A stretch of 62,809 nt of DNA, filler included, from Bipalium vagum (lineage: Eukaryota), in the NCBI GenBank assembly GCA_037834085.1. It is 3 parts of 3 records of this genome, joined end to end, with 100 filler letters (N's around TTAATTAATTAA, not from the genome) between each part and the next. Parts side by side here need not be neighbours in the genome. Positions count along the whole stretch, not along the records: positions 40,607 to 62,809 come from JBBMKC010225553.1; 2 more parts are not named here. The stretch is one strand, 5' to 3'. Below, piece by piece: positions 41,786 to 56,976 of this stretch; position 1 is the stretch's first letter, and the number at the start of each line of letters is the position of its first letter. The notes under the pieces are model-generated. The model worked only from the letters and a program-made list of their open reading frames with translations. It was not told the origin of the DNA and did no database searches. The position numbers were made by a program, and so were the translations under genes.

Positions 41786-47578
<5,793 letters not shown>

Positions 47579-48319
47579 CTTGAAACTGTTATTGAAAACT
47601 GAAATCTTAATTATTCTAATTAGTTCATTTAAAGAAATTTGAAGACAGTTGAAAAAATCTTTGTTAAAATGATATATGACAAAATTTTGAGTTAAATTTA
47701 AATGTTAAATTTACCTAAAACAATTATATCTTTAAATTCTTTCTCATGTCAAATTAGTTTTTATAAATAATAATTTTAAAAGGTTGATTAAAAATAAATA
47801 TTTCTTATAATAAAATTAAATTACAATAATTAACTATACAGCTCATTGTTATAAAATTAATTGAAAGAATATTAAAATTATTTAAACTATATAGTGTAAA
47901 TAATAACAATATTTATAAATATTAGTAAATTATTTGACTTACTAAATTCTTTGCTATATTTTATATTTTCTTTTATTAATATATTAATATTATTTGTTTT
48001 TAAATATTTAATTAAATACAAAGTTTTGAACTTCTCTGTGTAAATCTTGTTTGCTTACAAGTTGGCCTTATTCAAAGCCATTAAAACATTTTAAAAACCT
48101 AGCCTGATAATTCTCATATTATCAATATCTCAAGTTTCGATGATTAAAATCATATTTTCCCTTCATTACTCAAAAATGTCAATGGTAACATACTCAAACC
48201 TGTGCTTCTTTCCTATAACATCACGCAAAAATAAGATGTAACCGGAATAATTTATTCTTTGTTGTCATAATTCATTGTATCAGAATGTTTTAGTATCATA
48301 ATTTTTGGATATCGAACAA

Positions 48320-49912: not shown

Positions 49913-50575
49913 ATGATTGAAGAAAAAGCACTAATTCTGATCCTATGATGTCATTATTGGAAAAAAGGTCTATCAGGTGCAGCTGTGACTAGAGAAATTT
50001 TTGAGGTGGAAGGCAAGATAAATAAACTCAAGGAAAATACTGTTCAGTGGTGGTTTCGTTGCTTTAATCAGGGAGATACCGATCTTGAAGATAAGAAATG
50101 TTCAGGTCGACCATCTGTGATAAACAAGGAAGAGTTTTGTGTCCTAATAGATTAAACAGCCCAGTACAAGCACCCGAAGGCTGTAAGAAGAGTTCAAATT
50201 CTCAAAGCACCTTCGTTCGTCATTTACATAACATTGGTTTTGTAAATAAAAATCTACTCCGAGTTCTCCACAAATTGACAGAGTTGATCTTTGTCACGAA
50301 TTACTACAGAATCACAAAGACAAATGCTTTTGGAGGTGCATTATTTCAGGAGATAAAAAGTGTGTTTTCTTCCGTAATCCTAGTAGAGATAAGCTGTGGC
50401 TTCCACCTGGTCAGCCAACTCAGCAAGTAGTTTCACCAGATCGCTTTGAAAGAAAGTGATGTGCGTTTAGTGAAATTATGAAGGGCCTGTGCACTGGGAA
50501 CTTGTTCCGGAGAGTCTAGCTATCGATGATAACCTTTATGCTGAACAACTACAGGGAGTTCATGAAGAAGAGCTA
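49913..50575 (+). mobile_element. Degenerate mariner transposase, 3'-truncated
   Basis: MIEEKALILIL*CHYWKKGLSGAAVTREIFEVEG..ENTVQWWFRCFNQGDTDLEDKKCSGRPS and later NYEGPVHWELVP..YAEQL. Same family as 26742-28372. Confidence 0.85.
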
Positions 50576-52003: not shown

Positions 52004-52807
52004 ATGGATCAATATTTAGTCCAGTTTGATAATTTAGTCACCTTCGATAAAATTTGGAAGTATAATTATATTTTCTTTTTCAAAATATAATTACCATGTT
52101 ACAGACACAGTTTCGATGATCTCAAGAAAACTGCGGATCAAGATGAATTTACCATGTTAAAATATTCAAATAATTTAAAAGAGTCCCAAAACAATAGAGA
52201 TATTTATTCTCATCTGTTTGTCATTGATGGCAATATTCCATATAAGGACATCACAGATCCTATCGATGTCAAACTGAGTAAGAGATTATCAGATGCTGTA
52301 TTTGTACGTAATTTATCACAGGTTCCTCAAAGAAGTATTTCAGTCAATGGGACAAGGAAAATTTTTTATATAATTTACCAAAGACTGAAAATCGATCAAA
52401 TAATCAGAAAAATTCAAATTGTTACAAAATGAAAACCAGAATAAATCACAGAAATAAACCTCTAAATAAAGCAGCTGTACAAGTAATGGAAAAGTGGTAT
52501 ATGAAACATTACAATTATCCTTATCCGAACAATGAGGAAAAAGAAAAATTAGCACTGAAAGGATATATCTCTATTGCTCAAGTAGTTTATAAATGACATT
52601 ATCAGTTTAAAGAAAGTTCAATAGGTCAACTCGTGGTTTGCCAATCGTCGCAATAGAAGTGATAACACAAAGCCGAAAAACAATCGCAAATATCTCGAGG
52701 CCCATCTTAAGAAATTCGCTGAGGAACTGGAAGTCGAAAGTTATGGAACTCTGAAAGCACATTCAATTGCCAGTAGATTGACAGAAATTCTTAAAAAATA
52801 TAATTAA
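52004..52807 (+). CDS. Divergent TALE-class homeobox transcription factor, 4 exons, 223 aa
   Basis: Exons 52004-52059, 52105-52277, 52322-52581 and 52625-52807 (GT-AG introns of 45, 44 and 43 nt) join in frame. Homeodomain NHRNKPLNKAAVQVMEKWYMKHYNYPYPNNEEKEKLALKGYISIAQ|VNSWFANRRNRSDNTKP has the TALE PYP loop and WFxNxR. Confidence 0.92.
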
Positions 52808-54766: not shown

Positions 54767-56086
54767 CACAGCTGGACAAAAAAATGATGCTTACACAAAA
54801 TAAAATATTTTTATAAAAATGTTAAAATTGGTTAACATTTATTAAATTTTAAATATTTAAGCTATTGCATGTAATATTTATGAAATTTGGTGTTTTTGTT
54901 CTGTTTGTTTTATTAATTCAAGTTATAAATAAAATGAACAAGACACATTTAAATATCGAAACAAAAAATCGGATATGTGGCCTTTGTTACACAAAACTGT
55001 CATATCCTAAAACGCAGAATATTTTGAAGAAACATGGTATTCAAATTCCATTATCCACAACACAAAAAATTTGCTACCAGTTCAAGACAACAGGTTCTGT
55101 AAAAAGATAACCAGGCTCAGGCAGACCCAGAAAAATTACAAGTCGAGATAACAATAGACTGAAATTTGAGGTCATTAAAGATCGTAAGAAAACTATTAAA
55201 AAATTAGCTGAGGAATTCAAAAATGGAAATAATGAAATAGTTTCTCGAAAAACGATTGCAAGACGAGTCAAAGAATTAGGTTTTGCATCTATGCATTCTG
55301 CAAGGAAACCATTTTATTCAAAAAAGAATATTAAAGACAAATTAAATTTTTATAATCTTTGAGGTATGCATGATTCTCAGTGGTTCCAATATGTGTTCTG
55401 GAGGGATGAATGTCAATTTGAACTTCATAGTGATGCCCCTGAACGCTGTCTTTCAAGATCAACTGAAAATTATGTAATGGAATGTATTTCCACCTCAAAA
55501 AAACATGGCGCTGGGGGAATTATGGTTTGGGGAATATTCTCAGCATCTGGAGTTTGTAAGCTAATACGATTTACTGAGTCAATTAATGCCAAAGAGTACC
55601 AAAGGATATTAGATATTGGATTGCTTCCAAGCATCGAGAAGTTATGCACGGAAAATGAAAGACAGTATGTTATTTTCCAACAGGACAATGCAGCGGCACA
55701 CACAGACAAAACAACAAAAGCATGGTTGAAGAAAAAAGTGTACCGGTTATGTTTTGACCTGAACAATCGCCAGATTAATCCCATTGAGAATATATGGGCA
55801 TACATAAAGGCAAAACTAGCTGGGAAATATTTCAATACTCCTGACCAACTGCGGAAAGCAGTCAAGAAAGAATGGAAAATCATTAATACAGAACATTGTC
55901 AGAGACTATCATATAGCCTACCCAAACGGCTCAAGTTGCTTAAATTAGCTAAATGGAAATATATCTCTTATTAATATTTTTTATTTAGTTAATGATATAT
56001 TGTTTAAAATGTTTGTAAAATTGTTAAAATAAATGTTGTCATAATAAATGATATAAATTATGTAAGCCTCATTTTGGCCAGGTGTG
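54767..56086 (+). mobile_element. Full-length but inactivated Tc1-like transposon (1320 bp)
   Basis: Imperfect TIRs CACAGCTGGACAAAAAAATGATGCTTACA / TGTAAGCCTCATTTTGGCCAGGTGTG with TA on both sides. Transposase 54934-55974 with GSGRPRK, WRDE, KHGAGGIMVWG, FQQDNA and NPIENIW, interrupted by in-frame stops. Confidence 0.93.
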
Positions 56087-56174: not shown

Positions 56175-56976
56175 CAGGGTGTGTCAGCTATTTGAGGACA
56201 AAAATTGTTAAAATATATCATGATAATTTTTTTAGTAGCGCTAAAATTGATTTGCAATATTTATTAATACAACATTAAATAATTATTTTTAAATTTAAAA
56301 ATGGAAGAAATAACTTTTGAATTAACACAAGAAATAAAAAGGCATGTAGTTATTGCTACATTAATTTTGTTCAAAAAGTTCAGGATATTGTTCATGGAAG
56401 TCCCGGAACATCAATAAGAGAAATTTCCCATCAACTATCGGTTTCTGGGTCAACAGTAAGACAAACGGTACACAATGATTTAAAATGCAATTGTGTATCG
56501 GCAAAAAGCAAAAAAATCGTTTAATCCGCTCGAAGTTTCTTTTAAACAAAGTCAAGCAACCTGATCATCCAAATATGCTATGGTTCTTTTCTGATGAAAA
56601 ACATTTTACTCAAGATCAAAAAATTAATCGATGGCTGTGCTCCAGTGCTTCTGAGGTCAATAATGTTATGCACACCAAGTTCCCATCATCTTTAATGATA
56701 TTGAGTGTTGTGAGCAACGAAGATCATATTATGCCTCCGTATTTCTTTCCATAGGGACTTAGAATTAATACATCTTCTTATATCGATTGTCTGGATACAT
56801 ATGTGAAGCCTTGGATTGAAAAAGTTGCCCACGGAAGGCCTTATGTATTCCAAAAAGACTCAGCTCCCTGCCATACAGCATTAAAAACACATAAATGGCT
56901 ATCGCTAAATTTTAACGACCATGTCACTCCAAACTTTTAATATAAATTTTTGTCCTCAAATAGCTGACACACCCTG
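56175..56976 (+). mobile_element. Internally deleted maT/DD37D-like element with perfect 32-bp TIRs (802 bp)
   Basis: CAGGGTGTGTCAGCTATTTGAGGACAAAAATT at both ends with TA TSD. Peptide WFFSDEKHFTQDQK..NRWL..VMHTKFPSSLMILSVVSNE..MPPYFF..VKPWI..GRPYVFQKDSAPCHTA..WL..NF..TPNF, truncated before the third catalytic residue. Confidence 0.9.

What the first reader, a model, noticed from the sequence alone, without database searches (positions are those of the whole stretch)
52004..52807. Hidden divergent TALE homeobox gene resembling the spiralian-specific TALE (SPILE-type) expansions
Seen: a 223-aa four-exon gene whose homeodomain the ORF track misses, with PYP, Ala at homeodomain position 50 (WFANRR) and a tail NRSDNTKP. 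No PBC, MEIS or IRO-box region is recognisable. Established: PBX has WFGNKR, MEIS/PKNOX/TGIF have WFINAR and IRX/MKX have WFANARRR, so it fits no canonical family cleanly. Inference from recalled pattern: PLNxxAVxxMxxWY..LAxxGxI..QV..WFAN(K/R)RNRxxNT resembles lineage-specific lophotrochozoan TALE genes linked to early cleavage patterning, which are poorly characterised in flatworms.
Basis: partly seen in the sequence, partly recalled or inferred. Interest (0 to 1): 0.72.

Follow-up and report, generated by a model that had tools for sequence, protein, structure and literature searches.

The report
Flatworm spiralian-specific TALE homeobox gene
This is a real homeobox gene of the spiralian-specific TALE (SPILE) group that groups with a blood-fluke gene labelled 'irx' which marks germline stem cells, so it is likely a germline or egg transcription factor, predicted to pair with itself through a conserved helical tail.

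Summary
The gene is real. A TALE homeodomain (PYP, Ala50) is split by a 43-nt intron after residue 44 and followed by a 44-residue tail. Exons 3-4 are confirmed by homologues and purifying selection; exons 1-2 are one of many possible splice models and have no transcript support. Trees place it in the SPILE group (98/92), outside PBX, IRX and TGIF/PKNOX, inside a flatworm clade (98/96) with Schistosoma Smp_063520 and Echinococcus-like genes that Paps et al. 2015 already listed as TALE Clade III (SPILE-E). It is therefore a new member of a known family, not a new expansion; the second copy in this assembly probably comes from a second flatworm genome mixed in. Whether the clade is mollusc SPILE-E or -D is unresolved; lack of a PADRE domain favours E. 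Useful new links: the schistosome member, published as 'irx', is germline-stem-cell specific (RNAi: no testis phenotype), mollusc SPILE-E is maternal, and the tail of a close relative is predicted to form a homodimer (0.32 vs control 0.01, at the pass mark). Best reading: a germline/maternal transcription factor. Function in this animal is untested.

The parts
52004..52059 (+). Predicted exon 1 (ATG start)
   Evidence: Splice-model enumeration only; no homology or transcript support
52060..52104 (+). Predicted intron 1, 45 nt, GT-AG
   Evidence: Contains an in-frame stop and a T-rich tract; alternative acceptor at 52110
52105..52277 (+). Predicted exon 2, unconserved N-terminal region
   Evidence: weak match of a D[IM]YSHLF word to P0188, which overlaps that protein's helicase-like part; no Pfam hit
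52278..52321 (+). Predicted intron 2, 44 nt, GT-AG
   Evidence: Best consensus donor GTAAG, but one of 11 frame-keeping choices
52322..52581 (+). Exon 3; 52441-52581 encodes homeodomain residues 1-44 with the TALE loop and PYP
   Evidence: Pfam Homeobox_KN 24.4 bits; PBX1/PKNOX1/MEIS chains are the best PDB sequence matches; 51% identical to P0003
52582..52624 (+). Intron 3, 43 nt, phase 0, between homeodomain Q44 and V45
   Evidence: Same position in the second copy, in PBX L019/L022 and L033; P0188 ends there
52625..52672 (+). Exon 4, homeodomain residues 45-60 (recognition helix, WFANRR, Ala50)
   Evidence: Identical to the second copy and to P0003 at all 16 residues
52673..52807 (+). Exon 4, 44-residue two-helix C-terminal tail and stop; predicted homodimer interface
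   Evidence: Scores 31.1 bits on a profile of 14 trematode/cestode tails, best of 200 shuffles 6.1; two helices at pLDDT >90 in the P0003 model; complex prediction on P0003; 9 fully hydrophobic columns all in the predicted interface
41786..47704 (-). Neighbouring DDX5/p68-like DEAD-box helicase gene, head-to-head (context, not part of the gene)
   Evidence: ORFs; Pfam DEAD and Helicase_C; 52% identical to the N-terminal part of P0188

Best explanation
The gene encodes a TALE homeodomain protein of the spiralian-specific SPILE group, in the flatworm branch of TALE Clade III, and likely acts as a transcription factor in germline stem cells and eggs, predicted to bind DNA as a homodimer held together by its two-helix tail. 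Shown here: the homeodomain, the conserved tail, purifying selection and the tree position. Shown by others for relatives: gonad and germline-stem-cell expression of the schistosome member; maternal, all-blastomere expression of mollusc SPILE-E. Predicted: tail-to-tail dimer (on the relative P0003). Inferred: DNA binding through helix 3 (W48, F49, N51, R53 intact), expression in this animal's germline, and a role in setting up the oocyte or earliest embryonic programme rather than in adult axis patterning. It lacks the PBC/MEIS and PADRE partner domains, so the tail would replace them as the interaction surface.
For: Tree of 45 rows, homeodomain plus tail, LG+G4: query in a clade of 15 rows (98/96) holding 11 trematode/cestode-type proteins (10 named by the sources) inside 38 SPILE-type rows (98/92). 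P0008 (S. mansoni 'Irx-related') is identical over the 58 residues printed for TALE_Clade_III Smp_063520. [quoted passage not shown] SPILE-E is maternal in limpet and mussel (PMC8524836 section 7); oyster TALE1-4 peak egg to blastula (PMC5322547 section 12). A PADRE-region profile from 7 D-clade proteins hits D and B proteins but not the query or any flatworm or E protein, matching the published E-clade trait. Homodimer model: score 0.32, best of 3 controls 0.01; the mark was reached by 21 of 30 solved pairs and 0 of 23 single chains (eukaryotes 17 of 29, animals 7 of 16, 0 of 30 single chains); runs agree in at least 81% of contacts, pLDDT at least 74; all named interface residues lie in the tail.
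Against: No expression data for this gene. Knock-down of the schistosome member gave no visible phenotype (male germline examined only). One-to-one orthology with Smp_063520 is not shown: trematodes and cestodes hold more than one type in the clade. Flatworm + mollusc E as one clade is neither recovered nor rejected (p-AU 0.245, 0.225), nor is flatworm + D (0.127); published support for Clade III is 10%. The query's tail alone does not score above shuffles on mollusc E or D tail profiles (2.5 and 3.6 bits). The dimer score sits exactly at the mark, was run on P0003 and without the alignment; only 1 of 7 eukaryote pairs without an older solved relative reached the mark; query identity at interface positions (11 of 18) is not significantly above the rest of the tail (8 of 22; p 0.11). 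A 63-column mixture-model quick tree left PBX and SPILE rows in one unresolved fork and split the flatworm rows in three. Tree rows were found with a profile built from the query, and A/C-clade SPILE and MKX were not in the 45-row trees.
Confidence: 0.6

Rival explanations
1. It is a SPILE gene that patterns early blastomeres, as in limpet and mussel, with no special germline role.
For: SPILE genes specify quartet fates in limpet (PMC8524836 background); E-clade transcripts are in all blastomeres to the 16-cell stage; schistosome RNAi showed no testis defect.
Against: Most flatworm classes, and the flukes and tapeworms that keep this gene, lack spiral cleavage (PMC9469890 passage; own knowledge for flukes); the schistosome member is expressed in both gonads before eggs are made. 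Not exclusive of the best explanation: a maternal factor is made in the germline.
Confidence: 0.2
2. It is a flatworm-only TALE family, or the D rather than E branch of SPILE, and the link to mollusc SPILE-E is only homeodomain convergence.
For: AU tests do not choose between E and D; tail similarity to mollusc tails is not significant; by-eye identity to a Patella TALE-XVIII homeodomain (37/63) exceeds that to oyster TALE3 (34/63); a tapeworm paper speaks of a TALE expansion specific to parasitic flatworms (PMC6225667 passage).
Against: No PADRE domain, which all D-clade genes have; N-x-P-L-N arm and QVxSW shared with E; homeodomain scores 97 bits on the E profile against 91 on D (small difference); the same NT[KR]PK junction and two-helix spacing in flatworm, E and D proteins.
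Confidence: 0.25
3. It is a fast-evolving PBX (or IRX) duplicate that works as a Hox cofactor.
For: PBX1 is the best PDB sequence match for exon 3; shared intron at 44/45; query+PBX not rejected on the homeodomain alone (p-AU 0.059); databases label relatives 'Irx' or 'Pre-B-cell leukemia factor 4'.
Against: Only 19 of 63 residues identical to the assembly's PBX and 18-20 to IRX, against 31-40 to SPILE-E and flatworm rows; rejected with the tail (p-AU 0.021 PBX, 0.002 IRX); no PBC hit; canonical PBX and IRX genes exist separately in the assembly.
Confidence: 0.05
4. It is a decaying duplicate or pseudogene.
For: It has diverged more in the tail than the second copy (62% vs 75% to P0003); exons 1-2 lack support; transposon remnants flank it.
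Against: Open frame, canonical splice sites, dN/dS about 0.16 against the second copy and 13:1 synonymous to non-synonymous differences in the recognition helix region; all hydrophobic tail core positions kept.
Confidence: 0.04

Closest known systems
Schistosoma mansoni Smp_063520 ('irx', 'Irx-related'; TALE Clade III of Paps et al. 2015)
   Same: Same clade (98/96); 35 of 63 homeodomain residues identical; ungapped 44-residue tail of the same pattern; homeodomain near the C-terminus; no PADRE.
   Different: 689 aa against a predicted 223 aa; helix 3 reads WFANRRTRT against WFANRRNRS; function known only as germline-stem-cell expression with no RNAi phenotype in testes.
Mollusc SPILE-E / TALE-III (Crassostrea TALE3, Nipponacmea SPILE-E, Patella TALE-III)
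   Same: 31-35 of 63 homeodomain residues identical; N-x-P-L-N arm, QVxSWFAN, NT[KR]PK junction; single homeodomain; no PADRE domain.
   Different: K rather than R at position 52 in nearly all; tail not significantly alike by profile; one clade with the flatworm genes is not recovered; expressed maternally in spirally cleaving embryos.
SPILE-D / TALE-XVIII and TALE-II
   Same: 27-33 of 63 residues identical; a similar helical tail after NTKPK.
   Different: Carry a PADRE-type domain upstream, absent here; QVKAW rather than QVNSW.
PBX/extradenticle
   Same: TALE fold (rmsd 0.8-0.9 A over 58-59 residues for the P0003 model, Z 10.8); intron at 44/45.
   Different: Gly50, PBC domains, 19 of 63 identity, different C-terminal extension.

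Membership tests
TALE class homeodomain | 63-residue homeodomain with three-residue loop extension and PYP | tested here: met
   Numbering; Pfam Homeobox_KN over cut-off; ungapped alignment
TALE class homeodomain | Three-helix fold matching solved TALE domains | tested here: met
   Model of relative P0003: MEIS2 Z 11.4, rmsd 0.8, 55 aligned; EXD Z 10.8; the query itself was not folded
SPILE (spiralian TALE) clade | Groups with SPILE homeodomains to the exclusion of PBX, MEIS/PKNOX, TGIF, IRX | tested here: met
   98/92 and 98/93; clade labels assigned by matching stored proteins to published homeodomain rows; B, D and E types sampled, A/C types absent from the 45-row trees
TALE Clade III / SPILE-E | Groups with the flatworm members listed in 2015 (Smp_063520, EmW_000753000, EmW_001016600) | tested here: met
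   15-row clade 98/96 with tail; homeodomain alone 77/74, not rejected; tail profile 31.1 bits vs 6.1 shuffled
TALE Clade III / SPILE-E | One clade with mollusc E genes | tested here: inconclusive
   p-AU 0.245 and 0.225; flatworm + D 0.127
TALE Clade III / SPILE-E | Single homeodomain, no PADRE domain | tested here: met
   PADRE-region profile gives no hit on the 223-aa model at E up to 10; depends on the predicted N-terminus
TALE Clade III / SPILE-E | Maternal expression in eggs and early blastomeres | not testable with these tools
   No RNA run listed
SPILE-D / TALE-XVIII | PADRE-type domain upstream of the homeodomain | tested here: not met
   definition from PMC8524836 section 5
SPILE-B / TALE-IV | Two homeodomains and RQ[VI]PNYF tail | tested here: not met
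   One homeodomain in the model; tail scores -1.4 bits on the B profile
PBX | Gly50 (WFGNKR), PBC domain, grouping with PBX | tested here: not met
   Ala50; no PBC hit in three pieces; p-AU 0.021 with tail, 0.059 without
IRX | WFANARRR helix and grouping with IRX | tested here: not met
   WFANRRNR; p-AU 0.002 and 0.005; Ala50 alone is shared
MEIS / PKNOX / TGIF | Ile50 (WFINAR) and grouping | tested here: not met
   Ala50; query+TGIF+PKNOX p-AU 0.008; MEIS only as partial rows
MKX | Grouping with MKX homeodomains | not tested
   No MKX protein was stored; published MKX rows read WFANAR, unlike the query

The most novel reading that the evidence does not exclude
SPILE-E is an ancestral spiralian germline-to-egg transcription factor, not primarily a cleavage-patterning gene: it survives across flatworms that abandoned spiral cleavage, the schistosome germline marker 'irx' is really this SPILE, and the family replaced PBX-MEIS-type partnering with homodimerisation through its own four-helix tail bundle, an undescribed interaction domain. 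A free-living member makes this testable by RNAi.
Probability: 0.3. Interest if true: 0.68.

Novelty: new member of a known kind. Interest (0 to 1): 0.42.

Why it matters
SPILE genes are the main candidate for a spiralian-specific control layer in early development, but they have been studied in molluscs and annelids. This gene shows the family in what is likely a free-living flatworm, ties it to a schistosome germline gene that databases and a functional paper call 'irx', and points to a conserved tail that may be a dimerisation domain. That turns the question 'why keep a spiral-cleavage gene without spiral cleavage?' into an RNAi and in situ experiment. The family itself and its parasitic-flatworm members were already in print, so the surprise is moderate.

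Tried and rejected
No RNA holder listed; the one run laid gave patchy contig cover and no intron joints: no evidence either way on expression. Word-index search with exon 3 found nothing. ESM Atlas gave no usable hit for exon 4. Earlier scan findings: nothing shown in 3 look-ups. Single-sequence fold of P0003 failed (pLDDT 36); the alignment-based one worked; fold searches covered only the homeodomain, so the tail's fold was not compared on its own. The mixture-model careful tree did not finish; its quick stand-in was poorly resolved, so the reported trees use LG+G4. Idea that the query's N-terminus derives from the neighbouring helicase: rejected (1103 of 2000 shuffles as high; only short AT-rich DNA matches). 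Idea that the second copy shows an expansion: rejected as unsafe. Idea that planarian 'irx-like' (PMC13594227) is this gene: unlikely, its best model-organism hit is mouse Irx1 at 4e-30 and the motifs were not in the 5 supplements held as text; its sequence was not seen. Morino et al. 2017 is not held; it included flatworm sequences, so a planarian member may be named there. No planarian study of this gene turned up in paper searches. Four FASTA supplements of PMC8524836 and file 1 of PMC5322547 could not be read and may bear on clade membership. Published SPILE rows were compared by eye, not put in the trees.

Full report
Observation. The finding lies in the third stretch of the pack (40607-62809 = G000:C225553), about 25-30% GC. 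A four-exon model with 45, 44 and 43-nt GT-AG introns gives 223 aa. The homeodomain starts at residue 117, has 63 residues with the TALE loop, PYP, W48, F49, A50, N51, R53, and is cut by intron 3 between Q44 and V45, which shifts the frame and hides it from a plain ORF scan. Exon 3 passes Pfam Homeobox_KN and its best PDB sequence matches are PBX1, PKNOX1, EXD and MEIS. Exons 3-4 are secure; exons 1-2 are not: about 44 frame-keeping models exist (my count of a cut listing), and the N-terminus has only weak support from one relative. No RNA could be laid.

It is under selection. Two searches of G000 found 2 matches each, the gene and one copy on C213710 (lower bounds). That copy has the same intron position (4953 nt long) and an ungapped match over 107 codons: 56 identical residues, dN 0.38, dS 2.39; in the first 19 codons of exon 4, 13 synonymous against 1 non-synonymous differences. 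The copy should not be read as a paralogue without care. All 11 of 11 other homeobox pairs I checked in the assembly are 92-100% identical in protein yet differ at 37-63% of shared codons, and the assembly holds two long cox1 frames open under table 9 that are 80% identical in protein, plus further, more distant cox1 pieces. The simplest reading is two flatworm genomes and some other DNA in one assembly; an old genome doubling is less likely given the two cox1 types. Either way this family evolves far faster than canonical TALE genes.

Relatives. Exon 4 found one protein among 17 candidates, P0003 (unnamed, 63% identical over 98% of the exon), with a 382-aa cluster mate. A profile of P0003 and the four exon pieces, run on 1.84 billion representatives, gave 4074 hits at E 0.001 and listed the best 150. 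Those matching homeodomain and tail in one stretch include named trematode and cestode proteins (9 of the 10 looked up carry names: Schistosoma, Trichobilharzia, Heterobilharzia, Calicophoron, Opisthorchis, Fasciola, Paragonimus, Dicrocoelium, Taenia) and mollusc and nemertean proteins (Patella, Lineus). P0008, named 'Irx-related' in S. mansoni, is identical over the 58 printed residues to 'TALE_Clade_III Smp_063520' in the supplement of Paps et al. 2015 (PMC5322547; supplement rows); P0056 and P0184/P0185 nearly match the two Echinococcus rows of the same clade; P0068 and P0105 differ by one residue from oyster TALE3 and Patella TALE-III (PMC6118893 supplement part 22), which that paper equates with SPILE-E (section 11).

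Trees. Identity over 63 homeodomain columns: 40 to P0003, 31-35 to E-type and fluke/tapeworm rows, 27-33 to D-type, 21 to TGIF at best, 18-20 to IRX, 19 to PBX. With 45 of the 80 prepared rows (thinned for run time; tails used for 34, homeodomain only for 11), IQ-TREE LG+G4 puts the query with P0188, the second copy and P0003 (99/94), inside a 15-row flatworm-type clade (98/96), inside 38 SPILE-type rows (98/92) that exclude PBX, IRX, TGIF, PKNOX and the TALE-IV-type gene. Homeodomain alone: SPILE side 98/93, flatworm rows 77/74. AU tests: query+IRX p 0.002 and 0.005; query+TGIF+PKNOX 0.008; query+PBX 0.021 with tail and 0.059 without; flatworm+E 0.245 and 0.225; flatworm+D 0.127. An 80-row mixture-model quick tree on 63 columns was mostly unresolved and left PBX among SPILE rows. 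So SPILE membership and the flatworm Clade III group are supported; E against D is open. A profile of the PADRE region from 7 D-type proteins hits D and B proteins down to E 1e-5 but not the query, flatworm or E proteins, which fits the published trait that only E lacks PADRE (PMC8524836 section 5). Caveats: rows were retrieved with a profile built from the query; clade labels are mine, by matching to published rows; A/C-type SPILE and MKX were not in the 45-row trees.

The tail. The 44 residues after the homeodomain align without gaps across 16 flatworm-type rows plus P0003. The query's tail scores 31.1 bits on a profile of 14 fluke and tapeworm tails (best of 200 shuffles 6.1) but only 2.5 and 3.6 on mollusc E and D tails, no better than shuffles. 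An alignment-based model of P0003 shows the homeodomain followed by helices 150-172 and 179-194 at pLDDT above 90; the N-terminal 80 residues are low-confidence. Two copies of P0003 residues 88-195 scored 0.32 against a best control of 0.01; the mark was reached by 21 of 30 solved pairs and 0 of 23 single chains (eukaryotes 17 of 29, only 1 of 7 without an older solved relative; 0 of 30 single chains); runs agree in at least 81% of contacts, pLDDT at least 74; the alignment was not used; all 18 named interface residues are in the tail. The 9 tail columns that are hydrophobic in all 16 rows all fall in that interface; the same residues could also pack within one chain. This supports, and does not show, a tail-to-tail four-helix dimer, and the query itself was not modelled.

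How it likely works. Helix 3 keeps the DNA-contacting residues, so sequence-specific binding is inferred from established homeodomain biology. Without PBC, MEIS or PADRE domains the protein would rely on its tail for partnering. For where it acts, the evidence is from relatives. Smp_063520, called 'irx', is one of two transcription factors specific to schistosome germline stem cells, is seen in male and female gonad primordia, and gave no visible RNAi phenotype in a screen focused on testes (PMC7817839 passages; preprint passages); in the miracidium it is confined to Kappa stem cells with other germline genes (PMC11349301 passage). Mollusc SPILE-E is maternal and in all early blastomeres (PMC8524836 section 7). 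An unclassified tapeworm TALE gene is testis-specific and two others rise in maturing segments (PMC6225667 passages), but I could not tell whether they belong to this clade. Most flatworm classes have lost spiral cleavage (PMC9469890 passage). A germline and egg role fits all of these; I put it at 0.6, a purely cleavage-stage role at 0.2. That the host is a free-living triclad-like worm is my inference from the tree, the cox1 code and recalled genome traits; no call names it.

Neighbourhood. A DDX5/p68-like helicase gene lies head-to-head 4.3 kb upstream. The query's nearest tree neighbour P0188 (98/80) is a single frame whose first 110 residues are a degenerate piece of such a helicase, 52% identical to this neighbour against 42-46% to four other DDX5-like loci, followed by the homeodomain up to the same intron point. 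This suggests the two genes are linked in a related species and were fused there, or that the record is chimeric. The second copy's contig shares nothing with the window beyond the homeobox gene.

Novelty. The family and its fluke and tapeworm members are in print (2015, with 10% support); the 2018 revision left flatworms out; Morino et al. 2017 was not available. My paper searches showed no study of a free-living flatworm member, no statement that schistosome 'irx' is a SPILE, and no account of the tail as a dimer domain; most subscription papers are outside that library. Verdict: new member of a known kind, interest 0.42.

Noticed in passing
G000 as a whole (L003-L041, L050-L052): 11 of 11 homeobox pairs checked are near-identical in protein but far apart at silent sites, and two distinct table-9 cox1 frames plus other cox1 pieces are present: the assembly looks like a mix of two flatworm genomes and other DNA, so copy numbers from it are unsafe.
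   Followed up: partly
P0188 (unnamed record) and window 41786-47704: The nearest relative is a helicase-homeobox chimera whose helicase part best matches the DDX5-like gene next to the query; possible conserved linkage or fusion.
   Followed up: partly
window 41786-47704, - strand: The DDX5/p68-like gene is a divergent copy: its four nearest matches in the assembly are only 56-60% identical.
   Followed up: partly
L014, L018, L033: A second non-canonical TALE family in the assembly whose homeodomain matches the flatworm rows of TALE Clade IV (Smp_157830, EmW_000427000); it falls outside the SPILE side in my trees.
   Followed up: partly
L015:196-378 (406-bp contig, GC 0.44): A SPILE-like homeodomain with an in-frame stop in the N-terminal arm; may be a pseudogene or foreign DNA.
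   Followed up: no
window 55111-55974, also about 50000-50550 and 56479-56754: Transposase remnants flank the gene; the first has a weak DDE_3 match below cut-off, the other two are judged by eye.
   Followed up: no
P0008, P0033, P0056, P0184: [quoted passage not shown]
   Followed up: yes
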